From: Squalus acanthias
Taxonomy: Eukaryota
NCBI GenBank assembly: GCA_030390025.1
Contig: CM059432.1
Location: forward strand, 29,266,001-29,330,000
DNA: 64,000 bases
Reading direction: 5' to 3'
Shown here piece by piece: positions 1,108 to 56,300 of this stretch (position 1 is its first letter; every line of letters starts with the position of its first letter). A program made the translations under genes and the position numbers. The notes below the pieces were generated by a model. It did no database searches and was not told the DNA's origin. It saw only the letters and a program-made list of their open reading frames with translations.

Positions 1108-3608
1108 TCAATAAGGAGCCCTAGTAAAACTGAAGTCAATGGGAATCAGGGGGAAAATGCTCCACTGGCTGGAGTCATACCTAGCACAAAGGAAGATGGT
1201 TGTGATGGTTGAAGGTCAATCATCACAGCCCAGGACATCACTGCAGGAGTTCCTCAGTGCAGTGTTCTAGGCCCAACCATCTTCAGCTGCTTCATCAATG
1301 ACCTTCCCTCCAACATAAGGTCAGAAATGGGGATGTTCGCTGATGACTGCACAGTGTTCAGCGCCATTCACAACTCCTCAGATAATGAAGCAGTCCATGC
1401 CCGCATGCAACAAGACCTGGACGACATTCAAGCTTGGGCTGATAAGTGGCAGGTAACATTCGTGCCACAGAAGTGCCAGGCAATGACTATCTCCAACAAG
1501 CGAGAGTCTAACCACCTCCCCTTGACATTCAACAGCATTACCATCACCGAATCCCCCATCATCAACTTCCTGGGGGTCACCATTGACCAGAAACTTAACT
1601 AGACCAGCCACATAGGAGGTCAGAGGCTCGGTATTCTGTGGTGAGTGTCTCACCTCTTGACTCCCCGAAGCCTTGCCACCATCTACTGAAGGGATAATTA
1701 CTAGTCCTAGCCCTTTTCGGGCCACCCCGGATCAGGCGTATTCCCCAGACGTTCACCTTCAACTAAAGTTAGAGATAGCCGAACCTTATAAGACGCTTAA
1801 TTGGGTCTAAAGGTTCAGACTATCTCTCCCTAAAGGAAAGGAATGACTTGAAGATGTTACCGTCCTCCAGATAGCACTTTTAATAAGGTTAACTAGACTG
1901 TAACCTTCCGGATATTATGAGGGTCCAGAAAACTCCCCCAGAATTCTGCAACTCCTCACCAAAGAGTGTACAGAGATTGAGTTTGTGAGTTTGATACAGA
2001 AGTACTATGTGTGACAATTCTAAAAATATATAGATTTATTAAAGAACCGACATGTAGTTAACAGCTGGTGATTCAGTCGCAACATTAACAGTTCTAAAAA
2101 CAAATAGCTTACAATTCTTATTCTCAGAGATCCTTATTCTCAAATCTTAACTTCGTTACATTTTTACATTTCTACTTAGTCTTAATCCAGGATATCCACC
2201 AAAATCAAATACAAGTACCTTTGATCACCCGAGACTCAAAGAGTTGAAAACTTACAGAGCTTGCCTCTGAAGTTGAGAATCGCTTGCCCCTTCCAGCGAA
2301 TTCTGTTTTCCCATTTGAAAATCCTATCTTTATACCCTTTTTTCAGTGGTATATCCTTTGAAGTTTTCTGCTGATGTAAGCTAATTATCTCTAGTTATAT
2401 TTCTGTTGACTTCTTTCTATTCTTACTGTCAGTTCAGCTGTTAGCTTGCAGACTTGTGTCTCTACCTTTAGGTGTTCAAAACTTATCATAAAAAACGGTT
2501 ATAACAGATGTATCTATTTGATGCCATTCTTACGAAGGTCTTCTATTCAATTCTTAAATCACCTCAGCTGGTTTTAAACAGACTTCGTGTCTCCTATCTG
2601 TTCCAAGTTCAACACATAAACAATGTGATTGCTTGGTGCATCTATTGATGTCATATTTATGAAAGTCTTCTGTTTGTATCTTTTTATAAACACTTCAACC
2701 GAGTACATGATTGTCTTCCTAACTACTTCAATTGGTTGTACCAAGAATTATGTCTCCTGTCTTTCATTTGATGTCATATTTATGAAGGCATATGTTTCTT
2801 TAATTTATGTGATTCATTTCAAAGTGTTGGTTTATGACACCTTAACTGGGGATTCCATTGTGCTCTTTCCAAAACTTCATACTTCTAGGAACCTCCAACC
2901 CTCTGTTTCAATGAGGCTTTTGTTTCAGTGTCAACAACTGATCTCTATCTCAAAAGCCTGTATGGTGTTTACAGCTTTGTGTTGTTGAGGCTTTTAGATT
3001 GTTAAACCCAGTCTGTCATGTTTTAATAAAGTCAGAATTTTGTTCATAGGATGGTGTATTTTTCTGAATATGGCTATTCCTTTACACTACAAGGTACAAG
3101 TCAGGAGTGTGATGGAATACTCTCCACTTGCCTGGATGAGTGCAGCTCCAACAACACTCAAGAAGCTCGACACCATCCAGGACAAAGCAGCCCGTTTGAT
3201 TGGCACCCCATCCACCACCTTAAACATTCCCTCTACCACCGGCATACTGTGGCTGCAGTGTGTACCATCTACAACATGCACTGCAGCAACTTGCCAAGGC
3301 TTCTTCGGGAGCACCTCCCAAACCCACAACCTCTTCCACCTCGAAGGACAAGGTCAGCAGGTGCATGGGAACACCACCACCTCCAAGTTCCCCTCCAAGT
3401 CACACACAATCCTGGCTTAGAAGTATATCGCCGATCCTTCATCGTCGCTGGGTCAAAACTCCCTACCTAACAGCACTGTGGGAGTACCTTCACCACAAGG
3501 ACTGCAGCAGTTCAAGAAGGCGGCTCACCTTCTCAAGGACAACTAGGGATGGGCAATAAATGCTGGCCTTGTCTGCAATGCCCACATCCCATAAGCAAAT
3601 TTAAAAAA
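1108..3608 (+). mobile_element. CR1-clade LINE 3' fragment of a second family, split by a solo LTR at 1687-3086
   Basis: RT motifs GVPQxSVLGPTIFSCFINDL and MFADDCT. The frame resumes after the LTR with YKVQVRSVMEYSPLAW. Tail aactagggatgggcaataaatgctggcc followed by an A-rich end. Confidence 0.88.
1687..3086 (-). mobile_element. Solo LTR, 1400 bp (copy 1)
   Basis: Begins TGAAGGG and ends CCTTTACA, flanked by the 4-bp direct repeat CTAC (1683-1686 and 3087-3090). It interrupts an otherwise continuous LINE and is homologous end-to-end, inverted, to 28611-30057. Confidence 0.9.
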
Positions 3609-10917: not shown

Positions 10918-11062
10918 TTTACGTTTGTGATTATGCAAATGAATTGGAGCGGAAACCTAAAGCCTAACCTAACCAGCGCAATTTGAAGCGCATTTGTGGC
11001 GTAATTTCCTGGTTGCTCCTGAAAGTGGAAACTCTCCCCCTGTATATTTGTAGCTTGCTGGC

Positions 11063-11238
11063 ATTGGGGGCACCAGAGGCGGGGCTGGTGGGTGCCATTG
11101 GGGGCACCGGAGGCGGGGCTGGTGGGTGCCATTGGGGGCACCGGAGGCGGGGCTGGTGGGTGCCATTGGGGGCACCGGAGGCGGGGCTGGTGGGTGCCAT
11201 TGGGGGCACCGGAGGCGGGGCTGGTGGGTGCCATTGGG
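11063..11238 (+). repeat. 34-bp GC-rich minisatellite, 5 copies plus a partial copy
   Basis: Unit attgggggcaccggaggcggggctggtgggtgcc at 11063, 11097, 11131, 11165 and 11199. Confidence 0.95.
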
Positions 11239-20798: not shown

Positions 20799-21734
20799 CC
20801 AATCTGTTTTTAGGTATTGGTTGAGGGATAAATATTCGCTGTGATTATTTGCATGAACAGCTTTGTGACTTTGTGCGCAAGCACGCGTTATACCGGAGCC
20901 GAGCATGTGCATCCGATCCCCTTCTGCACATACTCACTGTATACCAGAGCCGCGCATGTGCAGTAACTAATGGTGCCACTGTGGCCTGCACCGTGGGCCG
21001 TGATTTCCTCAGCTCCATGTGGAGAAGGTCAGGGGATCCATTGGTGGCCAGGAGTGGGGGGGGCGGATGGGAAGTGGAAGATCGAGGATCGAAAGGGGAG
21101 AGAGAAAGGGAATCGGAGGGGGGAGAGAGAGAGGATATTGGAGAGAGAGAGAGGAGATTGTGGGGGGGGATAGAGAGAAGATCGGAGGGGGAGAGAGAGA
21201 GGGGGAGAGAGAGAGGGGGGATAGAGAGGAGAGGGAGAGAAAGAGAGGGGAAGAGAGAGAGGAGGGAGAGAGGAGGAAGAGAGAGGGGGAGAGAGGGGGA
21301 GAGAGAGGGGGAGAGAGAGGGGCGGAGAGAGAGAGAGGATCGGAGGGGGAGGGAGAGAGGATCGGAGGGAAAGAGAGAGAGAGAGAGAGGGAGAGGATCA
21401 GAGGGGGGAGGGAGAGAGGGAGATGATCAGAGGGGGAAGAGAGAGAGAAAGGATCGGAGGGAGGGAGAGAGAGATCAAAAGGGTGGAGGGAGAGAGTGGA
21501 GATTGTAGGGGGGAGAATAAAGAGATCAGAGGGAGGGAGAGAGAGGAGATGGAAGGGGGAGAGAAGAGGAGCTCTGAGGGGGGAGAGGAGGTCAGGAACT
21601 CAGGGGGAGAGGAGGTCAGGAACTCGGGGGAGGGGTGGTAAAGAGCATGGAGAGCACAGTGGGGATGGGGGAAGAATGTGATCCAGGTCTAAAGGGGGGG
21701 TTGGGGGTGAGAGTGAGAACACGATCCAGATGGA

Positions 21735-24420
21735 AAGAAGGAAATAGTTGAGGCATGTAATAAGGGAACATCTATAATTATGGGGGATTTTAACTATCAT
21801 ATTAATTGGACAAATCAAATGGGGCAGGGCTGCCTTGAGGATGAGTTCATTGAGTGTATTAGGGATGGGTTTCTTGAGCAGTATGTAACTGAACCGACCA
21901 GGGGGCAAGCAACCTTAGATCTGGTCCTGTGTAACGAGACAGGATTAATTAAAAATGTCCTAGTAAAGGATCCCCTTGGAATGAGTGACCATAACATGGT
22001 TGAATTCCATATTCAATTAGAGGGTGAGAAGGTTGGATCTCAAACAAGCGTGCTAAGCTTGAATAAAGGAGACTATGAAGGTATGCGAGCGGAATTGAGT
22101 AGAGTGGATTGGGAAAATAGATTAAAGGGTAAGACGACACATGATCAGTGGTGTACATTCAAGGAGTTATTTTACAACTTCCAAAAAAAATATATTCCAC
22201 TGAAAAGAAAAGGGTGTAAAAGAAAGGACAGTCATCCGTGGCTAAGTAAAGAAATTAAGGATAGTATTCGACTAAAAACAAGGGCATATAAGGTAGCGAA
22301 ATCTAGTGGGAGGACAGAGGATTGGGAAAACTTTAAAAGGCAGCAAAAAATAACAAAAAGATTGATTAAGAAAGGGAAGATAGATTATGAAAGTAAATTA
22401 GCAAAAAATATAAAAACAGATAGTAAGAGTTTTTATAGTTATATAAAAAGAAAAAGGGTGGCTAAAGTAAATGTTGGTCCCTTAGAGGATGAGACCGGGA
22501 AATTAATGGTGGGAAATATGGAGATGGCAAAAACACTGAATGAATATTTTGTATCAGTCTTTACAGTAGAGAACACTAAGAATATCCCAACACTGGACAA
22601 ACAGGGGGCTATAGGGGGAGAGGAGCTAAACACGATCAAAATCACTAAGGAAGTGGTACTCGGTAAAATAATGGGACTCAAGGCGGATAAATCACCTGGA
22701 CCTGATGGCTTACATCCTAGAGTCTTGAAGGAAGTGGCGGTAGGGATTGTAGATGCATTGGTAATAATTTTTCAAAACTCCCTGGATTCCGCTAAGGTCC
22801 CGGCAGACTGGAAAACTGCTAATGTAACACCCTTATTTAAAAAGGGCAGTAGACAGAAGGCTGGTAACTATAGACCGGTTAGCCTAACATCTGTGGTAGG
22901 TAAAATTTTGGAGTCCATTATTAAGGAAACAGTAACAGGACATTTGGATAATCATAATTTAATAGGACAAAGTCAGCATGGTTTTACGAAGGGGAAGTCA
23001 TGTTTGACAAATTTGCTGGAGTTCTTTGAGGAAGTAACATATAGAGTGGATAAAGGGGAACCAGTGGACGTAGTGTATTTAGACTTCCAAAAGGCATTTG
23101 ACAAGGTGCCACACAAAAGATTATTGCTTAAGGTAAAAAATCACGGGATTGGGGGTAATATTCTGGCATGGATAGAGGATTGGCTATCTAACAGAAAGCA
23201 AAGAGTTGGGATAAATGGTTCATTCTCAGACTGGCAATCAGTAACTAGTGGTGTTCCACAGGGGTCAGTGCTGGGTCCCCAACTCTTCACAATCTATATT
23301 AACGATTTGGAGGAAGGGACCAAGTGTAACATATCAAAATTTGCAGATGATACAAAGATGGGAGGGAAAGTAGTGAGTGAGGAGGACATAAAAAACCTGC
23401 AAGGGGACATAGACAGGCTAAGTAAGTGGGCAGAGATTTGGCAGATGGAATACAACACTGGAAAGTGTGAGGTGATGCACTTTGGCAGGAAAAATCCTAG
23501 AGCAATTTATTATCTTAATGGCAAGAAACTGGAGAGTACTGAAGTGCAAAGGGATCTGGGGGTCCTGGTGCACGAAACTCAAAAGGTTAGTATGCAGGTG
23601 CAGCAAGTGATTAAGAAGGCAAATGGAATGTTGGCTTTCATTGCTAGGGGGATAGAATATAAAAATAGGGAGGTATTGCTTCAGTTGTACAAGGTATTGG
23701 TGAGACCGCACCTGGAATACTGCATACAGTTTTGGTGTCCTTACTTAAGGAAAGACATCCTTGCTCTCGAGGCAGTGCAAAAAAGGTTCACTCGGTTAAT
23801 CCCGGGGATGAGGGGGTGGTCATATGAGGAGAGGTTGGGTAGATTGGGACTCTACTCATTGGAGTTCAGAAGAATGAGAGGCGATCTTATTGAAACATAT
23901 AAGATTGTGAAGGGGTTGGATCGGGTGGATGCGGGGAGGATGTTCCCGATGACGGGTGAGACGAGAACTAGGGGACATAGTCTTAGAATAAGGGGCTGCT
24001 CTTTCAAAACTGAGATGAGGAGGAACTACTTCACTCAGAGGGTGGTAGGTCCATGGAATATGCTGCCACAAAAAGCTGTAGAAGCTACAACATTAATTAA
24101 ATTTAAAACAGAAATAGACAGTTTCCTAGAAGTAAAGGGCATTAAGGGTTACGGGGAGCGGGCAGGAATTTGGACATGAGTCTAGGTTCGGATCGGACAT
24201 GGCCCTGTGGGTAGTGGAGCGGGCCCAGGGACTGTGTAGCCTGATTCTGCTCCTATTTCGTGTGTGCAATTCTGTTAGATGCAGGAGATGGTTCTGTGAT
24301 AGATAGTAGATTGGCGGTTAGGATCAGATCAGCCATGATCTTATTGAATGGCGGAGCAGGCTCGAGGGGCCGATTGGCCTACTCCTGCTCCTATTTCTTA
24401 TGTTCTTATGTTATGTTCTT
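21735..24420 (+). mobile_element. Young 5'-truncated CR1 LINE
   Basis: Uninterrupted ORF2 remainder, a 3' UTR ending (tatgttct)n, and a putative TSD ATGGA (21730-21734 and 24421-24425). Confidence 0.95.
21780..24179 (+). CDS. CR1 ORF2: C-terminal APE endonuclease part plus complete reverse transcriptase (N-terminally truncated)
   Basis: 799 aa open frame with GDFN, TLDLVL and SDH (APE), and NYRPVSLTS, QHGF, YLDFQKAFDKVPH, GVPQGSVLGP and FADD (RT). Confidence 0.93.
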   Translation: MGDFNYHINWTNQMGQGCLEDEFIECIRDGFLEQYVTEPTRGQATLDLVLCNETGLIKNVLVKDPLGMSDHNMVEFHIQLEGEKVGSQTSVLSLNKGDYEGMRAELSRVDWENRLKGKTTHDQWCTFKELFYNFQKKYIPLKRKGCKRKDSHPWLSKEIKDSIRLKTRAYKVAKSSGRTEDWENFKRQQKITKRLIKKGKIDYESKLAKNIKTDSKSFYSYIKRKRVAKVNVGPLEDETGKLMVGNMEMAKTLNEYFVSVFTVENTKNIPTLDKQGAIGGEELNTIKITKEVVLGKIMGLKADKSPGPDGLHPRVLKEVAVGIVDALVIIFQNSLDSAKVPADWKTANVTPLFKKGSRQKAGNYRPVSLTSVVGKILESIIKETVTGHLDNHNLIGQSQHGFTKGKSCLTNLLEFFEEVTYRVDKGEPVDVVYLDFQKAFDKVPHKRLLLKVKNHGIGGNILAWIEDWLSNRKQRVGINGSFSDWQSVTSGVPQGSVLGPQLFTIYINDLEEGTKCNISKFADDTKMGGKVVSEEDIKNLQGDIDRLSKWAEIWQMEYNTGKCEVMHFGRKNPRAIYYLNGKKLESTEVQRDLGVLVHETQKVSMQVQQVIKKANGMLAFIARGIEYKNREVLLQLYKVLVRPHLEYCIQFWCPYLRKDILALEAVQKRFTRLIPGMRGWSYEERLGRLGLYSLEFRRMRGDLIETYKIVKGLDRVDAGRMFPMTGETRTRGHSLRIRGCSFKTEMRRNYFTQRVVGPWNMLPQKAVEATTLIKFKTEIDSFLEVKGIKGYGERAGIWT

Positions 24421-28398: not shown

Positions 28399-28610
28399 TT
28401 TTTAAAATTTTTATTTTTTTATTAAACATTAAAAACATTTACAACATTGTGATCATTCCATTGTATCATACAAATCCATTCCAACGTTCTGCACTGCCAT
28501 TCCTCTACCACATATTAACATCAAAATCTGAAGTTTAATTGGTCTCCCATAATATATACTAATCTATTGTACTTTAAAAATTGATCAGTAATCATGGCTC
28601 CAAATAAGGG

Positions 28611-30057
28611 TGTAAAGGAATGAGCCATACCTATTCAGAAAAATACACCATCCTATGAACAGAATTCTGACTTTATTAAAATATGACAAACTGGGTTTAA
28701 AAATCTAAAAGCCTCAACAACACAAAGCTGTAAATATAGGCTTCTGAGATAAGATGAGTCACAAAGCTGTAAACACCATACAAGCTTTTGAAATGGGAAT
28801 TGGTTGTTGACACTGAGACAATGGCCCTATTGAAGCAAAGGGTTGGAGTTTCCAAGAAGTCTGCAGTTTGGAAAGAACACAATAGCTATACCCAGTTTAA
28901 AGTGTTATAAACTAACACTTCGAACAGAAACACAGAACATTAAAGAAACATGTGCCTTTGTAAAAATATGACATCAAATGAAAAACAGGAGACATAAGTC
29001 TGTAATACAACCAATTGAAATAGCTAAGAAAACAATCATGTACTCGGTTGAAGTGGGTTTAAATTTACATGTTGTAAAAGATACAAACAAAAGACTTTGT
29101 AAATATGACATCAATAGATGCACCAAGCAATCACATGGTTTTTGTATTGAACTTGGAACAGTTAGGAGACGCGAAGACTGGCTTACAACCAGCTGAGGTG
29201 ATTTAAGAATTGAATAGAAGACCTTCGTAAAAATGGCATCAAGTAGATACATCTGTTATAACCATTTTTTATGATAAGTTATGAACACCTACACAGCAGA
29301 CACAAGTCTGCAAGTTAACAGCTGAACTGACAGTAAGAATAGAAAGAAGTCAACCGAAATATGACTAGAGATAATTAGCTTACATCAGCAGAAAACTTCA
29401 AAGGATATACCACTGAAAAAAGAGTATAAAAGATAGGATTTTCAAATGGGAAAGCAGAAGTTGCTGGAAGGGGCAAGCAATTCTCAACTTCAGAGGCAAG
29501 CTCTGTAAGTTTTCAACTCTTTGAGTCTCGGGTGATCAAAGGTACTTTTATTTGATTTTGGTGGATATTCTGGATTAAGAATAAGTAGAAATATAAAAAT
29601 GTAACGAAGTTAAGATTTGAGAATAAGGATCTCTGAGAAGAATTGTAAGCTATTTGTATTTTGAACTGTTAAAGCTGCAATTGACTCACCAGCTGCCGGT
29701 TCTTTAATAAATCTATATATTTTTAGAATTGTCTCAAATAGTATTTCTGTATCAAACTCATGAACTCAATCTCTGTACACTCTTTGGTGAGGAGTTGCAG
29801 AATTCTGGGGGAGTTTTCTGGACCCTCATAATATCCGGAAGGTTACAGTCTAGTTAAACTTATTAAAAGTGCTATCTGGAGGACGGTAACATCTTAAAGT
29901 TGTTTCTTTCCTTTAGGGAGAGATAGTCTGACCTTTAGACACAATTAAGCATCTCTAGGATTCAGCTATCTCTAACTTTAGTTGAAGGTGAACGTCTGGG
30001 GAATACGCCTGATCTGGGGTAGCCCGAAAAGGGCTTGGACTAGTAATTATCCCTTCA
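28611..30057 (+). mobile_element. Solo LTR, 1447 bp (copy 2)
   Basis: TGTAAAGG...CCCTTCA with TSD AGGG (28607-28610 and 30058-30061). TATAAAA at 29425 and AATAAA at 29706 set the orientation. Confidence 0.9.
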
Positions 30058-30085
30058 AGGGAAGTGTGCTTGATAATCCCCCCCA

Positions 30086-32583
30086 TCATTGAATCTCCAT
30101 CCCTTCCTTTCTCTCATGCTCCTTCCCAACTTTTCGGCCAGCTGTTGCTTTCTCCTGCAGCCTCCAGCTCTTTTTTACCTCCTGTTTGAACCTTCCCTGC
30201 AGTTTCAGCCTCTTCCTTACATTAGGTTTGGGCCGAGGAGCTGCCCCTTCTCCCTCCTTCTGCCCCTCACTAACTTTTCCCTTTCCACACGATGCCACCC
30301 CACCCCGCACTTCCACGTCTCTGTCCCCCTCTGACTCCTCACTCTCGAGTTCTTCTGTAACTTCCCGTCCCTACTCCCCGTCAGATACAAAGGGGGGGAA
30401 TCTTCCCAGCCCTGGGGAGGCAGGTATGGAAGTGGGACGGCCGGGAAAATGGCAGAAACTGGGAGTGGGTACCGAACCTGCTCTCAACCCGCCTCTGTGC
30501 CATCTTTCCAGGAGGCGGGTCCCCGACTCGCGCAGGGACCCGTCTCCTCGAGGTGGGAAGGGGATTAGAGCCAATTAACTGCCTGTTAACAGATAGTTAA
30601 CAGGCAGTTTTGAGGCATATCCCCATTTTACCCCTGCAAGTGCGGGCTTTCCGACAGCTGCGAACCTCGCCAGGGTCAGCGAGGCGAGCAGTGGGTCTGC
30701 GCGGGTGAGAGAGATCGAAAAGTCCGCTGTGGAGGTGAGTGATGGGTGCAAGTGTGGAGAGGTAAGTATGAGAGGTGAGTGTAAAGTGTTAGAAAAAGTT
30801 TACTTACCTTTGCTTCTTCCTGCAGGCTTCAACCCTTGGGAATCCGGAGGTGCCTCATCTCAACAGCAGAGCTGACAGAATGGCTGCTGCATTCTCAGAT
30901 GCAGCAGCCATCTGATTTCTGCTGAGGAAAGATATTTTGGTGAGCCTTCAGTGCAAGGGCTCACCTTAGAACAGAGATTGTCAGTGTTTGACAGCTTCTC
31001 AAAGCTGTCAAATGCTGACAATTCATCTGTCAAAAATTTTCGACAGATGAAACGTCATACGCTGACGTCCTCTGTCACCGGCTTTCCCTTAATTGGCTGG
31101 CTAAGCCCGCAGGTCAGGCTTAACAAGGTCATTCAAGAGAAAATAGCGAGGGTTGGCCGGATATCGTTGGGAGCAGGACTGAAACCCAACAACCAGCAGT
31201 CCCGCCCCCAACGCACCCCCATTGACAAAATCCAGCTCATAATCTCCCTTAGGGAGTTTTCCTGCTATCACGGTTTCTCCAGTAGTGCCACTCCCTTCGG
31301 CCTCATTTCCACCGCTGACCCTTGCTCCCCGTTTCTTCTCTCTCTGGGACAATGGCGCATCTGCACCTAACTTGCTCCCTTCTGGCATCTTTGTCTCCTC
31401 ACTTCCATCCTGCTGCCCCTTTAAGGCTCCTGCCTCTTGTACGCTCTCCTTGTCTTGCCCCCTCCTGCTCCCTGAGATGTCCGACTCCCCGTCTTTCTTT
31501 GGAGTACTTACACTTACCCCGCACCCCGTTCCCACCTCCTTCCCCCGCGGACACCAGATTCTTTAGGGAGAGCCGAGCTGTAATATGGCTCGACTCTGCA
31601 CTTGACCCATGCTTCACGCTGCTGCCTTTGTCCTTTTCCACCGTATTTAGTGCACTTTCCACCATTTCCATCCTGTTCTCTTCTCCGCAATTTTTTGCCT
31701 CTTCCTGCACTCTTTTCTCCTTCCATTCATCAGCTGTGTCCTCCGCCTGCTCCGCTCCTCCAGCCACTCCACTCAAACCTCCTGCTCCTTCTCCTTCTCT
31801 CATCTCCTTGTCACTCAAGGGGCGTCCTTCTGCCACACATTCACAGTGGGTGGGGCCTTTGTGACACACCCCTCAGCTCTCCGCCTTGTAGCTCCGAGCG
31901 ATATGTCCAGACTCACCACAGTTATAACAGTACAAGTCTGGACAGCTTCTTACAAGATGGTCGTGTCCAAGACAATAACAACAAACCTTCACCTGGTTAT
32001 CATGCAGTACCCGGAAGTACTGCACTCCTTCCATTGTCAAAGTTCATACATTACTGCAATGACTTCACCCCCTCTGGAAACCGCACCTTTACATAATGGG
32101 TTCCATCTGCTACCCGCGTTCCTGGATAGTATCTCCTCTTTATTGCTGAGCAAATTTTAATGTCCCACGACTCCAACTTTTTTATTAGCATCATCCTCAA
32201 TATAAACCGACAGGTTTAAGAATGAGACCACCACCTCTTCAGAATATAGCAGAGATACCTCCAAGAACTTATCTCCAACCTTCAAACTCAGTAAAAGTCT
32301 TTCCACCTCATCTCGGCCACTGACCGTCACCTCGAACCCAACATTCGGCTGACAAAGCAGCTTCCCTCGCCGCAGTCCTCCTGCACCGCCTGGATAATAT
32401 CCCAAGCTCGTATCTCCTTATCCTCGCACTGAACCACCACCATGTTTTCTTTTCCAACCCTCCTGGGGTCCCGGCCCAAAACCTTTTTTTCTCCCTTCTC
32501 CCAACATTTTCTCCCCTGATTAAATTCATCCTGGGAACATTGTCCTCTGAGGGGCCTGGCACTCCGGGCCCCTCAGCAGCCAT
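30086..32583 (-). pseudogene. Tx1-type ORF1 (gag-like CCHC zinc-knuckle protein), disrupted
   Basis: Hand translation across frameshifts: VVVSFLNLSVYIEDD, IKRRYYPGTRVADGTHYVKVRFP, QYFRVLHDNQVKVCCYCLGHDHLVRSCPDLYCYNCGESGHIARS, GVCHKGPTHCEC, an acidic tail, and a basic RPKPNVRKRLK end. Confidence 0.85.
30391..31238. mobile_element. GC-rich MITE-like insertion within Tx1 ORF1 (ends approximate)
   Basis: Starts gggggggaatcttccc and ends aaaatccagctc. It breaks the pyrimidine-rich ORF1 tract. Confidence 0.5.
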
Positions 32584-43660: not shown

Positions 43661-44340
43661 CATTCAGTGTGCTTAAAATGTTCATCACTTAGTCTATTTG
43701 ATGCATTTGTCACTCAGTCTGTTTATAATACTGATCACTCAATCTGCTTCACGTATGTGTCGCTCAGTCGATTTAAAGTACTGGTGAATCAGTCAGTTTA
43801 AAATACTCCTTACACTATCTATTTAAAATAATCGTCAATCAGTCTGCTTAAAGTACTTGTCATGCAGGTTGTTTAATATACTCATCACTGACTATTTAAA
43901 ATACTCGTTCTGTTTCAAATATGTGTCTCAGTCTGTTCAATATATTCGTTATGCAGTCTGCTTATAATACTGACCGTGTCAAACTCTCATCACATAATTA
44001 TATCAAATGCTTACCATAGTCAGTTTAAAATACCCGTTGCTCAGTTTACTTAGAGTACTTGTCCGTCAGTGGGATTTAAATACCAGTCACTCAGTCTGCT
44101 TAAAAAACTCAAACACAATCTATTTAAAAAACACATTACTCGGTTTATTTTAAAAATTGTCATTAAATCTATTTATATACTTTTCCCACCATCTGTTTAA
44201 ATGACACATTAATCAAACTGTGTACAATACTTGGCGCCAAAAATTGGCAATAATTCTGTATGTTCAAAATATTTGTAATTCAATTTCTTTAAAATATTCA
44301 TCACACACTATGTTCAAAATAGCATCAGACAATCTGTTCA
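43661..44340 (+). repeat. Degenerate ~24-bp edge zone of the satellite
   Basis: Recurrent cactcagtctgtttaaaatact-like units that grade into the array. Confidence 0.7.
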
Positions 44341-47300
44341 AAAAATTCTCATTCAATGTTCAAAATATCATCACTCAATCTGTTCAAACTCTCATCTTTC
44401 AATCTGCTCAAAATCTGATCACTCAATATTCAAAATATCATCACTCAATGTTCAAAATATCATCTCTCAATCTGTTCAAACTCTCATCTTTCAATCTGTT
44501 CAAAATATCATCACTCAATATTCAAAATAACATCACTCAATGTTCATAATATCATCTCTCAATGTTCAAAATATCATCACACAATCTGTACAAAATAAAA
44601 TCACTCAATGTTCAAAATATCATCAAGGTGGAAAATATCATCAATGTTCAAAATATCATCTCTCAATGTTCAAAATATCATCTCACAATCTTCAAAATAT
44701 CATCTCGCATTGTTCAAAATATCATAACTCAATGTTCAAAATAACATCACTCAATATTCAAAATAGCATTTCTCAATGTTCAAAATATCATCTCACAATC
44801 TTCAAAATATCATCTCGCATTGTTCAAAATATCATCACTCAATGTTCAAAATAACATCACTCAATATTCAAAATAGCATTTCTCAATGTTCAAAATATCA
44901 TCAATGTTCAAAATATCATCACACAATCTGTTCAAAATAACATTACTCAATGTTCAAAATATCATCAATGTGCAAAATATCATCAATATTCAAAATATCA
45001 TCTCTCAATGTTCAAAATATCATCAACGTTCACAATATCATCTCTCAAAGTTCAAAATGTTATCTCTCAATGTTCAAAATAACCTCAATGATCAAAATAT
45101 CATCTCTCAATGTTCACAATATCATCAATTTTCAAAATATCATCTCTCAATGTTCAAAATATCATCAAAGTTCAAAATTACATCACTCAATGTTCCAAAT
45201 ATCATCTCTCAATGTTCAAAATATGATCAAAGTTCAAAATATCATCTCTCAATGTTCAAAATATCATCTCTCAATGTTCAAAATATCATCTCTTAATGTT
45301 CACATCATCTCCCAATGTTCAAAATATCATCTCTCAATGTTCAAAATATCATCTCGCAATGTTCAAAATATCATCTCTCAATGTTCAAAATATCATCTCT
45401 TAATGTTCACATCATCTCCCAATGTTCAAAATATCATCTCTCAATGTTCAAAATATCATCTCGCAATGTTCAAAATATCAACTCTCAATGTTCAAAATAT
45501 CATCACACAATGTTCTAAAATATCATCTTTCAATGTTCAAAATATCATTTCTCAATGTTCAAAATATCATCTCTTAATGTTCACATCATCTCTCAATGTT
45601 CAAAATATCATCACTCAATGTTCAAAATATCATCACTCAATGTTCAAAATATCAACTCTCAATGTTCAAAATATCATCTCTTAATGTTCACATCATCTCT
45701 CAATGTTCAAAATATCATCTCTCAATGTTCAAAATATCAACTCTCAATGTTCAAAATGTGATCTCTCAATTTTCAAAATATCATCTCTCAATGTTCAAAA
45801 TATCATCTCTCAATGTTCAAAATATCATCTCAGTGTTCAAAATATCATCTCTCAATGTACAATATATTATCACTTAATGTTCAAAATATCATCTTTAAAT
45901 GGTCAAAATATCATCTCTTAATGTTCACAATATCATTTCTCAATGTTGAAAATATCATCTCTCAATGGTCAAAATATCATATCTCAATGTTCACAATATC
46001 ATCTCTCAATGTTCAAAATATCTTCAATGTTCAAAATATCATCTCTCAATGTTCAAAATAGCATAAATTTTCAAAATAACATCAATGTTAAAAATATCAG
46101 CTTTCAATGTTCACAATATCATCTCTCAATGTTCAAAATATCATCAATGTTCAAAATGCCATCTCGCAATGTTCAAAATATCATCAATGTACAAAATATC
46201 ATCTGTCAATGTTCAAAATATCATCAATGTTCAAAATATCATTACTCTGTTCAAAATAACATCTCTCAATGTTCAAAACATCATCTCTCAATGTTCAAAA
46301 CATCATCTCTCAAAGTTCACAATATCATCTCTCAATGTTCAAAATGTGATCTCTCAATGTTCAAAATGTGATCTCTCAATGTTCAAAATATCATCTCTCA
46401 ATGTTCAAAATATCATCTCTCAATGTTCAAAATATCATCTCTCAATGTTCAAAATATCATATCTCAATGTTCAAAATATCATCTCTCAATGTTCAAAATA
46501 TCAACTCTCAATGTTCAAAATGTGATCTCTCAATTTTCAAAATATCATCTCTCAATGTTCAAAATATCAACTCCTTAATGTTCACAATATCATCTCTCAA
46601 TGTTGAAAATATCATCTCTGAATGTTCAAAATATCATCTCTCAATGTTCAAAAAATCATCAATGTTCAAAATATCATCTCACAGTGTTCAAAATTTCATC
46701 TCTCAATGTACAAAATATTATCACTCAATGTTCAAAATATCATCTTTAAATGGTGAAAATATCATCTCTTAATGTTCACTATCATTTCTCAATGTTGAAA
46801 ATATCATCTCTCAATGTTCAAAATATCATCACTCAATGTTCAAAATATCATCTCTCAAAGTTCACAACATCATCTCTCAATGTTCAAAATATCATCTCTC
46901 AATGTTCAAAATGTGATCTCTAAATCTTCACAATATCATCTCTCAATGTTGAAAATATCATCTTTAAATGTTCAAAATGTCATCTCTTAATGTTCACAAT
47001 ATCATCTCTCAATGTTCCAAATATCATATCTCAATGTTCACAATATCTTCTCTCAATGTTCAAAATATCATCAATGTTCAAAATATCATCTCTCAGTGTT
47101 CAAAATAGCATAAATGTTCAAAATAACATCAATGTTAAAAATATCATCTTTCAATGTTCACAATATCATCTCTCAATGTTCAAAATATCATCAATGTTCA
47201 AAATGCCATCTCGCAAGGTTCAAAATATCATCAATGTACAAAATATCATCTGTCAATGTTCAAAATATCATCAATGTTCAAAATATCATCATTGTTCAAA

Positions 47301-50300
47301 ATATCATCACTCTGTTCAAAATATCATCTCTCAATGTCCAAAACATCATCTCTCAATGTTCAAAACATCATCTCTCAAAGTTCACAATATCATCTCTCAA
47401 TGTTCAAAATGTGATCTCTCAATGTTCAAAATATCATCTCTCAATGTTCAAAATATCATATCTCAATGTTCACAATATCATCACTCAATGTTCAAAATAT
47501 CATCTCTCAATCTGTTAAAACTCTCATCTTTCAATCTGTTCAAAATCTCAGCACTCAATATTCAAAATAACATCACTCAATGTTCAAAATATCATCTCTC
47601 AATGTTCAAAATATCATCAATGTGGAAAATATCATCAATATTCAAAATAACATCTCTCAATGTTCAAAATATCATCAACGTTCAAAATATCATCTCTCAA
47701 TATTCAAAATATCATCTCTCAATGTTCAAAATATCCTCAATGATCAAAATATCATCGCTCAATGTTCACAATATCATCAATGTTGAAAATATCATCTCTC
47801 AATGTTCAAAATATCATCAAAGTTCAAAATATCATCTCTCAATGTTCAAAATATCATCTCTCAATGTTCAAAATATCAACTCTCAATGTTCAAAATATCA
47901 TTTCTCAATGTTCAAAATATCAACTCCTTAATGTTCACAATATCATTTCTCAATGTTGAAAATATCAACTCTCAATGTTCAAAATGTGATCTCTCAATTT
48001 TCAAAATACCATCTCTCAATGTTCAAAATATCAACTCCTTAATGTTCACAATATCATTTCTCAATGTTGAAAATATCAACTCTCAATGTTCAAAATATCA
48101 TCTCTCAATGTTCAAAATATCATCTTTCTATGTTCAAAATATCACTCAATGTTCAAAATATCATCAATGTGGAAAATATCATCAATGTTCAAAATATCAT
48201 CTCTCAATGTTCAAAATATCATCAACGTTCAAAATATCATCTCTCAATGTTCAAAATGTTATCTCTCAATGTTCAAAATATCCTCAATGATCAAAATATC
48301 ATCTCTCAATGTTCACAATATAATCAATTTGCAAAATATCATCTCTCAATGTTCAAAATATCATCTCTCAAAGTTCACAATATCATCTCTCAATGTTCAA
48401 AATGTGATCTCTCAATGTTCAAAATATCATCTCTCAATGTTCAAAATATCATCTCTCAATGTTCAAAATATCATCTCTCAATGTTCAAAATATCATCTCT
48501 CAATGTTCAAAATATCATCTCTCAATGTTCACAATATCATCACTCAATGTTCAAAATATCATCTCTCAATCTGTTAAAACGCTCATCTTTCAATCTGTTC
48601 AAAATCTCAGCACTCAATATTCAAAATAACATCACTCAATGTTCAAAATATCATCTCTCAATGTTCAAAATATCATCAATGTGGAAAATATCATCAATAT
48701 TCAAAATATCATCTCTCAATGTTCAAAATATCATCAACGTTCAAAATATCATCTCTCAATGTTCAAAATGTTATCTCTCAATGTTCAAAATATCCTCAAT
48801 GATCAAAATATCATCTCTCAATGTTCACAATATAATCAATTTGCAAAATATCATCTCTCAATGTTCAAAATATCATCTCTCAAAGTTCACAATATCATCT
48901 CTCAATGTTCAAAATGTGATCTCTCAATGTTCAAAATATCATCTCTCAATGTTCAAAATATCATCTCTCAATGTTCAAAATATCATCTCTCAATGTTCAA
49001 AATATCATCTCTCAATGTTCAAAATATCATCTCTCAATGTTCACAATATCATCACTCAATGTTCAAAATATCATCTCTCAATCTGTTAAAACGCTCATCT
49101 TTCAATCTGTTCAAAATCTCAGCACTCAATATTCAAAATAACATCACTCAATGTTCAAAATATCATCTCTCAATGTTCAAAATATCATCAATGTGGAAAA
49201 TATCATCAATATTCAAAATAACATCTCTCAATGTTCAAAATATCATCAACGTTCAAAATATCATCTCTCAATGTTCAAAATGTCATCTCTCAATGTTCAA
49301 AATATCCTCAATGATCAAAATATCATCGCTCAATGTTCACAATATCATCAATTTTCCAAATATCATCTCTCAATGTTCAAAATATCATCAAAGTTCAAAA
49401 TATCATCTCTCAATGTTCAAAATATCATCTCTCAATGTTCACAAATCATCTCGCAATGTTTAAAATATCATCTCTCAATGTTCAAAATATCATCACTCAA
49501 TGTTCACAATATCATCACTCAATGTTCAATATATCATCAATGTTCAAAATATCATCACTCAATTTTCTAAAATATAATCTTTCAATGTTCAAAATATCAT
49601 CTCTCAATGTTCAAATTATCATCTCTTAATGTTCACATCATCTCTCAATGTTCAAAATATCAACTCTCAATGTTCAAAATGTCAACTCCTTAATGTTCAC
49701 AATATCATTTCTCAATGTTGAAAATATCATCTCTCAACGTTCAAAATATCATCTCTCAATGTTCAAAATATCATCTTTCAATGTTCAAAATATCACTCAA
49801 TGTTCAAAATATCATCTCTCAATCTGTTAAAAATAACATTACTCAATGTGGAAAATATCATCAATGTGGAAAATATCATCAATGTTCAAAATATCATCTC
49901 TCAATGTTCAAAATATCATCAACGTTCAAAATATCATCTCTCAATGTTCAAAATGTTATCTCTCAATGTTCAAAATATCCTCAATGATCAAAATATCATC
50001 TCTCAATGTTCACAATATCATCAATTTGCAAAATATCATCTCTCAATGTTCAAAATATCATCAAAGTTCAAAATATCATCTCTCAATGTTCAAAACATCA
50101 TCTCTCAAAGTTCACAATATCTTCTCTCAATGTTCAAAATGTGATCTCTCAATGTTCAAAATATCATCTCTCAATGTTCAAAATATCATCTCTCAATGTT
50201 CAAAATATCATCTCTCAATGTTCAAAATATCATCTCTCAATGTTCAAAATATCATCTCTCAATGTTCAAAATATCATCACTCAATGTTCAAAATATCATC

Positions 50301-53300
50301 TCTCAATCTGTTAAAACTCTCATCTCTCAATCTGTTCAATATCTCAGCACTCAATATTCAAAATAACATCACTCAATGTTCAAAATATCATCAATGTGGA
50401 AAATATCATCAATATTCAAAATAACATCTCTCCATGTTCAAAATATCATCAACGTTCAAAATATCGTCTCTCAATGTTCAAAATGTCATCTCTCAATGTT
50501 CAAAATATCCTCAATGATCAAAATATCATCGCTCAATGTTCACAATATCATCAATTTTCCAAATATCATCTCTCAATGTTCAAAATATCATCAAAGTTCA
50601 AAATATCATCTCTCAATGTTCAAAATATCAACTCCTTAATGTTCACAATATCATCTCTCAATGTTGAAAATATCATCTCTGAATGTTCAAAATATCATCT
50701 CTCAATGTTCAAAAAATCATCAATGTTCAAAATATCATCTCACAGTGTTCAAAATTTCATCTCTCAATGTACAAAATATTATCACTCAATGTTCAAAATA
50801 TCATCTTTAAATGGTGAAAATATCATCTCTTAATGTTCACTATCATTTCTCAATGTTGAAAATATCATCTCTCAATGTTCAAAATATCATCACTCAATGT
50901 TAAAAATATCATCTCTCAAAGTTCACAACATCATCTCTCAATGTTCAAAATATCATCTCTCAATGTTCAAAATGTGATCTCTCAATCTTCACAATATCAT
51001 CTCTCAATGTTGAAAATATCATCTTTAAATGTTCAAAATGTCATCTCTTAATGTTCACAATATCATCTCTCAATGTTCCAAATATCATATCTCAATGTTC
51101 ACAATATCTTCTCTCAATGTTCAAAATATCATCAATGTTCAAAATATCATCTCTCAGTGTTCAAAATAGCATAAATGTTCAAAATAACATCAATGTTAAA
51201 AATATCATCTTTCAATGTTCACAATATCATCTCTCAATGTTCAAAATATCATCAATGTTCAAAATGCCATCTCGCAAGGTTCAAAATATCATCAATGTAC
51301 AAAATATCATCTGTCAATGTTCAAAATATCATCAATGTTCAAAATATCATCATTGTTCAAAATATCATCACTCTGTTCAAAATATCATCTCTCAATGTCC
51401 AAAACATCATCTCTCAATGTTCAAAACATCATCTCTCAAAGTTCACAATATCATCTCTCAATGTTCAAAATGTGATCTCTCAATGTTCAAAATATCATCT
51501 CTCAATGTTCAAAATATCATATCTCAATGTTCACAATATCATCACTCAATGTTCAAAATATCATCTCTCAATCTGTTAAAACTCTCATCTTTCAATCTGT
51601 TCAAAATCTCAGCACTCAATATTCAAAATAACATCACTCAATGTTCAAAATATCATCTCTCAATGTTCAAAATATCATCAATGTGGAAAATATCATCAAT
51701 ATTCAAAATAACATCTCTCAATGTTCAAAATATCATCAACGTTCAAAATATCATCTCTCAATATTCAAAATATCATCTCTCAATGTTCAAAATATCCTCA
51801 ATGATCAAAATATCATCGCTCAATGTTCACAATATCATCAATGTTGAAAATATCATCTCTCAATGTTCAAAATATCATCAAAGTTCAAAATATCATCTCT
51901 CAATGTTCAAAATATCATCTCTCAATGTTCAAAATATCAACTCTCAATGTTCAAAATATCATTTCTCAATGTTCAAAATATCAACTCCTTAATGTTCACA
52001 ATATCATTTCTCAATGTTGAAAATATCAACTCTCAATGTTCAAAATGTGATCTCTCAATTTTCAAAATACCATCTCTCAATGTTCAAAATATCAACTCCT
52101 TAATGTTCACAATATCATTTCTCAATGTTGAAAATATCAACTCTCAATGTTCAAAATATCATCTCTCAATGTTCAAAATATCATCTTTCTATGTTCAAAA
52201 TATCACTCAATGTTCAAAATATCATCAATGTGGAAAATATCATCAATGTTCAAAATATCATCTCTCAATGTTCAAAATATCATCAACGTTCAAAATATCA
52301 TCTCTCAATGTTCAAAATGTTATCTCTCAATGTTCAAAATATCCTCAATGATCAAAATATCATCTCTCAATGTTCACAATATAATCAATTTGCAAAATAT
52401 CATCTCTCAATGTTCAAAATATCATCTCTCAAAGTTCACAATATCATCTCTCAATGTTCAAAATGTGATCTCTCAATGTTCAAAATATCATCTCTCAATG
52501 TTCAAAATATCATCTCTCAATGTTCAAAATATCATCTCTCAATGTTCAAAATATCATCTCTCAATGTTCACAATATCATCACTCAATGTTCAAAATATCA
52601 TCTCTCAATCTGTTAAAACGCTCATCTTTCAATCTGTTCAAAATCTCAGCACTCAATATTCAAAATAACATCACTCAATGTTCAAAATATCATCTCTCAA
52701 TGTTCAAAATATCATCAATGTGGAAAATATCATCAATATTCAAAATAACATCTCTCAATGTTCAAAATATCATCAACGTTCAAAATATCATCTCTCAATG
52801 TTCAAAATGTCATCTCTCAATGTTCAAAATATCCTCAATGATCAAAATATCATCGCTCAATGTTCACAATATCATCAATTTTCCAAATATCATCTCTCAA
52901 TGTTCAAAATATCATCAAAGTTCAAAATATCATCTCTCAATGTTCAAAATATCATCTCTCAATGTTCACAAATCATCTCGCAATGTTTAAAATATCATCT
53001 CTCAATGTTCAAAATATCATCACTCAATGTTCACAATATCATCACTCAATGTTCAATATATCATCAATGTTCAAAATATCATCACTCAATTTTCTAAAAT
53101 ATAATCTTTCAATGTTCAAAATATCATCTCTCAATGTTCAAATTATCATCTCTTAATGTTCACATCATCTCTCAATGTTCAAAATATCAACTCTCAATGT
53201 TCAAAATGTGATCTCTCAATTTTCAAAATATCATCTCTCAATGTTCAAAATATCAACTCCTTAATGTTCACAATATCATTTCTCAATGTTGAAAATATCA

Positions 53301-56300
53301 TCTCTCAACGTTCAAAATATCATCTCTCAATGTTCAAAATATCATCTTTCAATGTTCAAAATATCACTCAATGTTCAAAATATCATCTCTCAATCTGTTA
53401 AAAATAACATTACTCAATGTGGAAAATATCATCAATGTTCAAAATATCATCTCTCAATGTTCAAAATATCATCAACGTTCAAAATATCATCTCTCAATGT
53501 TCAAAATGTTATCTCTCAATGTTCAAAATATCCTCAATGATCAAAATATCATCTCTCAATGTTCACAATATCATCAATTTGCAAAATATCATCTCTCAAT
53601 GTTCAAAATATCATCAAAGTTCAAAATATCATCTGTCAATGTTCAAAACATCATCTCTCAAAGTTCACAATATCATCTCTCAATGTTCAAAATGTGATCT
53701 CTCAATGTTCAAAATATCATCTCTCAATGTTCAAAATATCATCTCTCAATGTTCAAAATATCATCTCTCAATGTTCAAAATATCATCTCTCAATGTTCAA
53801 AATATCATCTCTCAATGTTCAAAATATCATCACTCAATGTTCAAAATATCATCTCTCAATCTGTTAAAACTCTCATCTCTCAATCTGTTCAATATTTCAG
53901 CACTCAATATTCAAAATAACATCACTCAATGTTCAAAATATCATCAATGTGGAAAATATCATCAATATTCAAAATAACATCTCTCCATGTTCAAAATATC
54001 ATCAACGTTCAAAATATCGTCTCTCAATGTTCAAAATGTCATCTCTCAATGTTCAAAATATCCTCAATGATCAAAATATCATCGCTCAATGTTCACAATA
54101 TCATCAATTTTCCAAATATCATCTCTCAATGTTCAAAATATCATCAAAGTTCAAAATATCATCTCTCAATGTTCAAAATATCAACTCTCAAGGTTCACAA
54201 ATCATCTCGCAATGTTTAAAATATCATCTTTCAATGTTCAAAATATCATCACTCAATGTTCACAATATCATCACTCAATGTTCAATATATCATCAATGTT
54301 CAAAATATCATCACTCAATGTTCTAAAATATCATCTTTCAATGTTCAAAATATCATCTCTCAATGTTCAAATTATCATCTCTTAATGTTCACATCATCTC
54401 TCAATGTTCAAAATATCATCTCTCAATGTTCAAAATATCAACTCTCAATGTTCAAAATGTGATCTCTCAATTTTCAAAATATCATCTCTCAATGTTCAAA
54501 ATATGAACTCCTTAATGTTCACAATATCATTTCTCAATGTTGAAAATATCATCTCTCAACGTTCAAAATATCATCTCTCAATGTTCAAAATATCATCTTT
54601 CAATGTTCAAAATATCATCTCTCAATGTTCAAAATATCATCTCTCAATGTTCAAAATATCAACTCTCAATGTTCAAAATGTGATCTCTCAATTTTCAAAA
54701 TATCATCTCTCAATGTTCAAAATATCAACTCCTTAATGTTCACAATATCATTTCTCAATGTTGAAAATATCATCTCTCAACGTTCAAAATATCATCTCTC
54801 AATGTTCAAAATATCATCTTTCAATGTTCAAAATATCACTCAATGTTCAAAATATCATCTCTCAATCTGTTAAAAATAACATTACTCAATGTTCAAAATA
54901 TCATCAATGTGGAAAATATCATCAATGTTCAAAATATCATCTCTCAATGTTCAAAATATCATCAACGTTCAAAATATCATCTCTCAATGTTCAAAATGTT
55001 ATCTCTCAATGTTCAAAATATCATCTCTCAATGTTCAAAATATCATATCTCAATGTTCACAATATCATCACTCAATGTTCAAAATATCATCTCTCAATCT
55101 GTTAAAACTCTCATCTTTCAATCTGTTCAAAATCTCAGCACTCAATATTCAAAATAACATCACTCAATGTTCAAAATATCATCTCTCAATGTTCAAAATA
55201 TCATCAATGTGGAAAATATCATCAATATTCAAAATAACATCTCTCAATGTTCAAAATATCATCAACGTTCAAAATATCATCTCTCAATATTCAAAATATC
55301 ATCTCTCAATGTTCAAAATATCCTCAATGATCAAAATATCATCGCTCAATGTTCACAATATCATCAATGTTGAAAATATCATCTCTCAATGTTCAAAATA
55401 TCATCAAAGTTCAAAATATCATCTCTCAATGTTCAAAATATCATCTCTCAATGTTCAAAATATCAACTCTCAATGTTCAAAATATCATTTCTCAATGTTC
55501 AAAATATCAACTCCTTAATGTTCACAATATCATTTCTCAATGTTGAAAATATCAACTCTCAATGTTCAAAATGTGATCTCTCAATTTTCAAAATACCATC
55601 TCTCAATGTTCAAAATATCAACTCCTTAATGTTCACAATATCATTTCTCAATGTTGAAAATATCAACTCTCAATGTTCAAAATATCATCTCTCAATGTTC
55701 AAAATATCATCTTTCTATGTTCAAAATATCACTCAATGTTCAAAATATCATCAATGTGGAAAATATCATCAATGTTCAAAATATCATCTCTCAATGTTCA
55801 AAATATCATCAACGTTCAAAATATCATCTCTCAATGTTCAAAATGTTATCTCTCAATGTTCAAAATATCCTCAATGATCAAAATATCATCTCTCAATGTT
55901 CACAATATAATCAATTTGCAAAATATCATCTCTCAATGTTCAAAATATCATCTCTCAAAGTTCACAATATCATCTCTCAATGTTCAAAATGTGATCTCTC
56001 AATGTTCAAAATATCATCTCTCAATGTTCAAAATATCATCTCTCAATGTTCAAAATATCATCTCTCAATGTTCACAATATCATCACTCAATGTTCAAAAT
56101 ATCATCTCTCAATCTGTTAAAACGCTCATCTTTCAATCTGTTCAAAATCTCAGCACTCAATATTCAAAATAACATCACTCAATGTTCAAAATATCATCTC
56201 TCAATGTTCAAAATATCATCAATGTGGAAAATATCATCAATATTCAAAATAACATCTCTCAATGTTCAAAATATCATCAACGTTCAAAATATCATCTCTC

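What the first reader, a model, noticed from the sequence alone, without database searches (positions are those of the whole stretch)
28611..30057. Two long solo LTRs with a foamy-virus-like layout
Seen in sequence: two inverted copies (1687-3086 and 28611-30057) of a 1.4-kb non-coding element, each with TG..CA ends and its own 4-bp TSD (CTAC, AGGG), so these are two independent integrations. In copy 2, TATAAAA is ~815 bp in (29425), a GTAAGT donor is at 29505 (about +50 from the expected start site, and also kept in copy 1 as acttac at ~2250), and AATAAA is at 29706. Established: spumaretroviruses have unusually long LTRs, 4-bp TSDs and a major splice donor about 50 nt into R, and foamy-like ERVs are known from fish. 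Inference: these may be solo LTRs of a shark foamy-like endogenous retrovirus. Gypsy elements and other ERVs also make 4-bp TSDs, so the class is not proven.
Basis: partly seen in the sequence, partly recalled or inferred. Interest (0 to 1): 0.72.

Follow-up and report, generated by a model that had tools for sequence, protein, structure and literature searches.

The report
Two long solo retroviral LTRs
These are two separately inserted leftover end-repeats (solo LTRs) of one multi-copy retroelement family, likely a foamy-virus-like endogenous retrovirus, but with no viral genes attached the class is unproven, and such remnants are ordinary.

Summary
There are two opposite-strand copies, 1,400 and 1,447 bp, 87% alike, with TG..CA ends and different 4-bp duplications. 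Public contigs holding the empty form of copy 2's site, and a LINE frame that copy 1 interrupts, confirm both duplications independently. The family is multi-copy and occurs in at least two coded organisms. U3 is A-rich, diverges faster than R/U5 (10.2% vs 5.6%), and about 400 bp of it is an old triplication with CRE-like cores. No overlapping gene was found. Length, 4-bp duplication, long R and U5, and a donor motif upstream of AATAAA fit foamy-like ERVs better than typical fish Gypsy or class I LTRs. None of these is diagnostic. The donor is not shown to be used, and the published fish foamy-like LTRs I read have no exact GTAAGT in R. No genome was held and no primer site or pol could be reached, so membership is untested: foamy-like about 50%. 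The scan already noted foamy-like solo LTRs (1.1-1.15 kb) elsewhere in this genome; none matched this sequence. Ordinary finding, low interest.

The parts
28611..30057 (+). Solo LTR, copy 2 (1,447 bp, TG..CA)
28607..28610 (+). Left target-site duplication AGGG of copy 2
   Evidence: empty-site joints
30058..30061 (+). Right target-site duplication AGGG of copy 2
28611..29454 (+). Inferred U3: A-rich (41% A, 25% T), the more variable part (10.2% between copies)
   Evidence: border inferred from the TATA position
28721..28773 (+). Short direct repeat (14 nt, 39 apart) bracketing a 39-bp stretch present in copy 2 only
28940..29335 (+). Old triplication of a 125-137-bp U3 module, each with a TGRCATCA core (CRE/ATF-like, label recalled); likely enhancer repeats
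   Evidence: an exact 14-mer repeat arose in 7 of 1,000 shuffles
29425..29431 (+). TATA box
   Evidence: kept in copy 1, and in variant contigs of runs X14, X15 and X17 whose neighbouring letters diverge (loose ends at 29420/29422)
29455..29736 (+). Inferred R region (about 280 nt), start about 30 nt after TATA, end at a CA 24 nt after AATAAA; neither end mapped
   Evidence: inference
29505..29510 (+). Candidate splice donor TCT|GTAAGT, about +50, upstream of the poly(A) signal; use not shown
29706..29711 (+). Poly(A) signal AATAAA, 352 nt from the 3' end
29737..30057 (+). Inferred U5 (about 320 nt); most deeply covered part in contig runs X14 and X17
1687..3086 (-). Solo LTR, copy 1 (1,400 bp), same layout: TATA 2334, donor motif 2255, AATAAA 2040
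1683..1686 (+). Target-site duplication CTAC of copy 1 (partner at 3087-3090)
3087..3090 (+). Target-site duplication CTAC of copy 1 (partner at 1683-1686)
1213..3400 (+). Host LINE ORF2 remnant (RVT_1, E 6e-15, at 1213-1599) interrupted by copy 1; right end approximate

Best explanation
The two elements are solo LTRs left by two separate integrations of one multi-copy LTR family, likely a foamy-like (spuma-related) endogenous retrovirus, each likely reduced to one LTR by recombination between its two ends. Shown: the ends, the two different 4-bp duplications, the empty-site forms, the presence of many family variants in public runs, the faster-diverging and partly triplicated U3, and the order TATA, donor motif, AATAAA, long U5. 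[quoted passage not shown] Confidence in 'solo LTRs of a multi-copy LTR family' is about 0.97; the figure given is for the foamy-like class.
For: Length 1,400-1,447 bp lies within the 960, about 1,500 and 1,634 bp of the newt, cichlid and killifish foamy-like LTRs, which have 4-bp duplications where these were found (PMC5512871 supplement). It is well above mean training lengths of fish-rich Gypsy clades (572, 695), gamma (521) and class III (504) LTRs (PMC3601003) and the roughly 500-bp mode in zebrafish (PMC8672886). The cichlid LTR has a similar plan by eye: TATA about 662, AATAAA about 1012, end about 1,500. U3 is A-rich and AATAAA lies 352 nt from the end, whereas Sushi has AATAAA near the 3' end and both Sushi and rGmr1 have T-rich U3. 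A 4-bp duplication argues against ERV3/ERV4 (5 bp) and ERV2 (6 bp) (PMC4299795). A donor upstream of the poly(A) signal inside R is described as the foamy arrangement (PMC3694450), and the motif is kept in both copies. T|GTAAGY is the donor consensus inside mammalian ERVL LTRs (PMC5538554), so a T at -1 does not rule out use.
Against: No defining feature (pol phylogeny, primer site, PPT junction, gag, env) could be tested. A 4-bp duplication is shared with gammaretroviruses and ERV1 and, by recall, with vertebrate Gypsy. GTAAGT occurs somewhere in 36% of shuffled LTRs and a looser GTRAG in 47% of shuffled R regions. Two copies 5% apart in R would keep a neutral hexamer most of the time. The donor ties with five other sites in copy 2 on U1 match. 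Of 8 exact GTAAGT hits in the PMC5512871 supplement, none is in R of a foamy-like LTR: four are in U5, one in the leader, three in coding regions (line breaks could hide hits). The inferred R (about 280 nt) is longer than prototype foamy R (193 nt). The 128 bases after TATA, which hold the donor, are thinly covered by family contigs at 85% likeness compared with both neighbours, so that stretch may vary in the family. Scan notes report several non-foamy ERV lineages in this genome, any of which could own this LTR. This LTR matched no noted foamy-like stretch.
Confidence: 0.5

Rival explanations
1. Solo LTRs of another retroviral lineage of cartilaginous fish: snakehead-retrovirus-like, lokiretrovirus-like or class I (epsilon-like). 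They would form the same way, and the GTAAGT would be incidental or an ERVL-style internal donor.
For: ERV1 makes 4-bp duplications. Snakehead-like and epsilon-like ERVs are known from elephant shark (PMC4422223). Unchecked scan notes describe large families of these kinds in this genome. Long R regions also occur in gammaretroviruses and lentiviruses.
Against: Gamma-type LTRs average about 520 bp, far shorter. Six motifs of this LTR were not found in the two supplement files of PMC4422223 held as text (whether they hold the LTR sequences was not checked). I found no LTR length or duplication data for lokiretroviruses in the passages read, so that branch is open.
Confidence: 0.3
2. Solo LTRs of a Gypsy (Metaviridae) retrotransposon with an unusually long LTR.
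For: Gypsy is the commonest LTR class in a fish genome (830 of 968 classified zebrafish elements). Animal Metaviridae LTRs share TG..CA, TATA-like and AATAAA motifs with retroviral LTRs. A 4-bp duplication is usual for them (recalled).
Against: Sushi and rGmr1 LTRs average 572 and 695 bp with T-rich U3, and Sushi has AATAAA close to the 3' end. Here U3 is 41% A and 25% T, and 352 nt follow the start of AATAAA.
Confidence: 0.17
3. Not an LTR: a non-autonomous DNA transposon or a segmental duplicate.
For: No internal region was seen next to either copy.
Against: The ends match only as a short imperfect TG..CA repeat. The flanks differ and carry different 4-bp duplications. TATA and AATAAA lie in promoter order on one strand. 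The U3-like part varies more than the R/U5-like part (Fisher p 0.003), as is general for LTRs.
Confidence: 0.03

Closest known systems
Fish and amphibian foamy-like ERVs (AciFLERV, AliFLERV, NviFLERV; PMC5512871, passages of the main text plus supplement file 1 parts 3 and 6 and searches in it; PMC5210030, passages and section 14)
   Same: LTR of 1-1.6 kb, 4-bp duplication, purine-rich U3 by eye, TATA several hundred bases in, long R and long U5. A short motif about 60-67 nt after TATA looks alike in AciFLERV and here (seen by eye, after the fact, not tested).
   Different: No sequence comparison could be run. In those LTRs exact GTAAGT lies in U5 or the leader, not in R. Primer site, GGGTG PPT junction and genes cannot be seen in a solo LTR.
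Prototype foamy virus LTR (PMC3694450; abstract, sections 3 and 11 read)
   Same: Donor motif inside R, upstream of the poly(A) signal; long LTR; 4-bp duplication (PMC5210030).
   Different: R is 193 nt with the signal at +168, against about 280 nt and about +250 here. No accessory ORF overlapping U3 was found here. Donor use is shown there and only inferred here.
Mammalian ERVL/MaLR solo LTRs with an internal donor (PMC5538554, passages read)
   Same: Mostly solo LTRs; donor consensus TGTAAGY inside the LTR.
   Different: [quoted passage not shown]
Elephant shark CmiERV lineages (PMC4422223, part 1 of 2 read) and catshark ERV-Spuma.0-Sca (PMC10699275, passages and a supplement search)
   Same: ERVs, including spuma-related ones, are already described from cartilaginous fish.
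   Different: Short motifs of this LTR were not found in their supplements as held; those files may not contain the LTR sequences.

Membership tests
Solo LTR of an LTR retroelement | TG..CA ends with a short target-site duplication | tested here: met
   Both copies; empty-site forms
Solo LTR of an LTR retroelement | No primer site, polypurine tract or internal genes attached | tested here: met
   Neither 3' flank starts with TGG; flanks are host repeats on both sides
Solo LTR of an LTR retroelement | Dispersed multi-copy family | tested here: met
   521, 604 and 1,351 contigs laid in three runs, with summed depth far higher over the LTR than over the flanks; not a copy number
Solo LTR of an LTR retroelement | U3-R-U5 signals (TATA, poly(A) signal) in order | tested here: met
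   Motifs present in both copies; start and cleavage sites not mapped
Foamy-like ERV (spuma-related) | RT/Pol groups with foamy viruses and FLERVs | not testable with these tools
   No genome held; no paired-LTR locus reached
Foamy-like ERV (spuma-related) | Primer site for tRNA-Lys (or Asn/Thr) | tested here: inconclusive
   None of the 18 loose ends shown lies at the LTR's 3' end; 250 more were not shown
Foamy-like ERV (spuma-related) | GGGTG at the PPT/3' LTR junction | not testable with these tools
   Needs a 3' LTR. Copy 2 reads GGG|TG at its left end, but those G's belong to the target-site duplication
Foamy-like ERV (spuma-related) | 4-bp target-site duplication | tested here: met
   shared with gamma/ERV1, so not diagnostic
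Foamy-like ERV (spuma-related) | Long LTR (about 1-1.6 kb) | tested here: met
   1,400 and 1,447 bp against 960-1,634 bp
Foamy-like ERV (spuma-related) | Major splice donor in R, upstream of the poly(A) signal, in use | tested here: inconclusive
   Motif present in both copies; not the best U1 match; no joint listed at 29505, in contigs not on record as RNA
Foamy-like ERV (spuma-related) | Gag without Cys-His box, env, internal promoter, accessory genes | not testable with these tools
   Internal region absent; the 30-codon frame at the U3 start found no protein relative
Fish Gypsy LTRs (Sushi, rGmr1) | T-rich U3; AATAAA close to the 3' end (Sushi) | tested here: not met
   U3 41% A, 25% T; AATAAA 352 nt from the end. 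Typical traits, not strict rules
Fish Gypsy LTRs (Sushi, rGmr1) | RT in Metaviridae, no retroviral env | not testable with these tools
   No internal region
Class I ERV (ERV1, gamma/epsilon-like) | 4-bp duplication | tested here: met
Class I ERV (ERV1, gamma/epsilon-like) | Pol placement, Gag zinc finger, donor in the leader | not testable with these tools
   No internal region
ERV3/ERV4 (ERVL-type) | 5-bp duplication | tested here: not met
   4 bp in both copies; PMC4299795 notes that the length is not fully consistent within classes

The most novel reading that the evidence does not exclude
This is a cartilaginous-fish foamy-like retrovirus lineage, distinct from the 1.1-1.15-kb LTR families already noted in this genome, whose LTR carries a working donor in R upstream of the poly(A) signal. 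The U1-based poly(A) switch of mammalian foamy viruses would then date back to the base of jawed vertebrates, and the ray-finned-fish lineages, whose exact donor matches lie in U5 or the leader, would have lost or moved it.
Probability: 0.15. Interest if true: 0.5.

Novelty: new member of a known kind. Interest (0 to 1): 0.22.

Why it matters
As it stands it matters little. Solo LTRs are the commonest relic of LTR elements, and foamy-like ERVs are already reported from cartilaginous fish (PMC5512871, PMC10699275). The LTR is a useful probe for a family that no scan note matched by sequence. It would matter more if the family proved foamy-like and its R donor proved functional, because the donor-before-poly(A) layout is described as peculiar to foamy viruses (PMC3694450), and its age could then be tested.

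Tried and rejected
Whole-genome search for paired-LTR copies: no genome held. Exact-pattern scans for family members found 0 loci in metagenome contigs, viral contigs and prokaryote genomes, as expected for a vertebrate repeat. Coding U3: the first 30 codons of copy 1 are open and differ conservatively from copy 2, suggesting the tail of an upstream ORF. No relative was found among 1.84 billion representatives at E 0.001, and 0 of 1 candidate scored among longer proteins. Both searches are weak for so short a query, so this is unsupported rather than excluded. RNA structure: none of six stretches around the start site, poly(A) signal or U5 end folded better than shuffles (z -0.67 to 1.06); Rfam gave 0 matches at E 1. 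Expression: no RNA holder was listed. Two runs guessed to be RNA were laid; their depth profiles track the DNA run (Spearman 0.92 and 0.97). They show relatively more U3/R than U5 (ratios to X14 of 0.42/0.30/0.09 and 0.42/0.23/0.20), but contigs cannot show start, strand or level, so I draw nothing from this. Run X21 (raw reads, organism H) gave 6 partly fitting reads in 1,523 million letters, 4 of 30 bins. Runs X17-X20 had shares of 0.20 or less; only X17 was laid. Dating: the copies are not a pair, so their distance (K2P 0.087) includes divergence before insertion and is no insertion date. A six-frame Pfam scan of the whole non-satellite window was not completed; 20 chosen ORFs of the 138 listed were scanned and only two LINE frames hit. 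PMC7947760 and PMC8227577 (passages) gave nothing on LTR layout.

Full report
Observation. Copy 2 spans 28611-30057 on the plus strand between two AGGG; copy 1 spans 1687-3086 on the minus strand between two CTAC; both run TG..CA. They align end to end at 87.2% over 1,467 columns, and the window holds no third copy. TATA (29425), GTAAGT (29505) and AATAAA (29706) are present, each with a counterpart in copy 1. The chance of both flank pairs matching is about 1.6e-5.

Independent proof of the insertions. One contig of run X15 jumps from 28610 to 30079 with 16 letters between that match window 30062-30077 at 14 of 16, so the empty form lacks the LTR and exactly one AGGG. A contig of X17 makes a similar jump. 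The flank is itself a repeat, so these may be other copies of it. Copy 1 sits inside a LINE ORF2 remnant: the frame with the RVT_1 hit ends at the LTR, and LINE-like coding sequence resumes after one CTAC (the flanks were translated separately, and the LINE reading of the right flank is by eye). Neither copy is followed by a primer-site-like TGG. They are solo LTRs from two integrations, not the two ends of one element.

The family. Of 22 runs listed, 16 hold 0.22-0.50 of the sampled words, from six coded organisms and seven studies (the stretch included flanks that are repeats). Four runs were laid. Three contig runs from organisms A and F gave 521, 604 and 1,351 contigs, with summed depth far higher over the LTR than over the flanks; raw reads of organism H gave only 6 partial reads. 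The tool warns that this depth is no copy number. Variant contigs keep the TATA box while the letters beside it diverge, and several U3 length variants appear (tables 5 and 7; 18 of 268 loose ends shown).

Anatomy. The inferred U3 (844 nt) is 41% A. It differs between the copies at 79 of 778 columns, against 34 of 603 in R plus U5 (Fisher p 0.003). Neutral decay after insertion would be even, so the two integrating variants likely already differed in U3. About 400 nt of U3 (28940-29335) is an old triplication of a 125-137-nt module with a TGRCATCA core (an exact 14-mer repeat in 7 of 1,000 shuffles). The CRE/ATF-like label is recalled, and the enhancer role is inferred. The LTR's length therefore owes much to repeat expansion. 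An open 30-codon frame at the U3 start found no protein relative. R would run from about 29455 to about 29736 and U5 to 30057; neither border is mapped. No fold beat shuffles, and Rfam gave nothing.

The donor. It lies about 50 nt after the expected start and 200 nt before AATAAA. [quoted passage not shown] The full spacing arises in 0.45% of 2,000 shuffles, with windows chosen afterwards. A plain GTAAGT arises in 36% of shuffled LTRs and in 6.6% of 5,000 shuffled R regions. The exon side has no U1 match, and five other sites in copy 2 score the same (recalled consensus). On the other hand, TGTAAGY is the donor consensus inside ERVL LTRs (PMC5538554 passages). In the published newt, cichlid and killifish foamy-like elements, 8 exact GTAAGT hits fall in U5 (4), the leader (1) or coding regions (3), none in R (PMC5512871 supplement 1; U5 and R assigned by eye from TATA and poly(A)-like motifs). 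A donor in R is thus not a documented mark of fish foamy-like LTRs. No joint at 29505 was listed, but the runs laid are contigs not on record as RNA.

Class. For foamy-like: length within 960-1,634 bp with 4-bp duplications; a plan like the cichlid LTR's; an A-rich U3 and long U5, unlike Sushi and rGmr1 Gypsy LTRs of 572 and 695 bp mean (PMC3601003 passages); most zebrafish LTRs near 500 bp (PMC8672886 passages); 5-bp duplications in ERV3/ERV4 (PMC4299795 passages). Against certainty: 4 bp is shared with gamma/ERV1 (PMC5210030 section 14); snakehead-like and epsilon-like ERVs exist in elephant shark (PMC4422223 part 1); and the defining features lie in the missing interior. The GGG|TG at copy 2's left end mimics the foamy PPT junction but comes from the duplication. 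No genome was held, four pattern scans found nothing, and no listed loose end showed a primer site. I put foamy-like at 0.5, another retroviral lineage at 0.3, Gypsy at 0.17 and non-LTR at 0.03. It works like any solo LTR; it is not filed as a foamy-like ERV.

Prior record. Scan notes, unchecked by me, describe foamy-like solo LTRs of 1.1-1.15 kb, a two-LTR foamy-like provirus, and snakehead-, loki- and class-I-like families in this same genome. Four sequence look-ups found no noted stretch like this LTR, so it may be a separate family; the index finds DNA only near 90% identity and covers noted stretches alone. The host being a shark rests on those notes and on recall. Seven literature searches ran. 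No listing named this LTR, and short motifs of it were absent from or incidental in three papers' supplements. Dfam and Repbase could not be searched, and bioRxiv supplements (e.g. 10.1101/2020.12.18.423569, listing only) are closed, so the family may already be catalogued.

Verdict. A real, cleanly defined pair of solo LTRs; a new member of a known kind; class likely but unproven. Interest 0.22. The boldest reading not excluded, an ancient foamy-type poly(A) switch in a cartilaginous-fish lineage, gets probability 0.15 and interest 0.5.

Noticed in passing
window 44260-64000: A satellite of about 20 kb built on a degenerate 22-nt unit with higher-order periods.
   Followed up: no
window 59696-60384 and 62216-62904: Two 689-bp LINE 3' ends inside the satellite, identical but for one base and 2,520 bp apart: a recent tandem duplication of a satellite block with its LINE insert, or an assembly repeat.
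   Followed up: partly
window 21717-24416 (+): 5'-truncated LINE with an unbroken 820-codon frame (endonuclease part and RVT_1, E 6e-31) and a short repeated tail; looks comparatively young.
   Followed up: partly
window about 3900-4800 (+): Broken DDE_Tnp_4 transposase remnant (E 1e-19); Harbinger/PIF-like by recall.
   Followed up: partly
window 11062-11238: GC-rich 34-bp minisatellite, 5.2 copies at 99% match.
   Followed up: no
window 29635-29712: One contig in run X17 (depth 68) skips this stretch, which includes AATAAA; the letters between are not known, so it may be a family variant with a replaced R end.
   Followed up: no
window 29485-29497: A short motif about 60 nt after TATA resembles one about 67 nt after TATA in the published cichlid foamy-like LTR; seen by eye after the fact, not tested, not seen in the killifish LTR.
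   Followed up: partly
window 30093-32160: A cluster of overlapping 100-180-codon frames just right of copy 2; five were scanned and had no Pfam match.
   Followed up: partly
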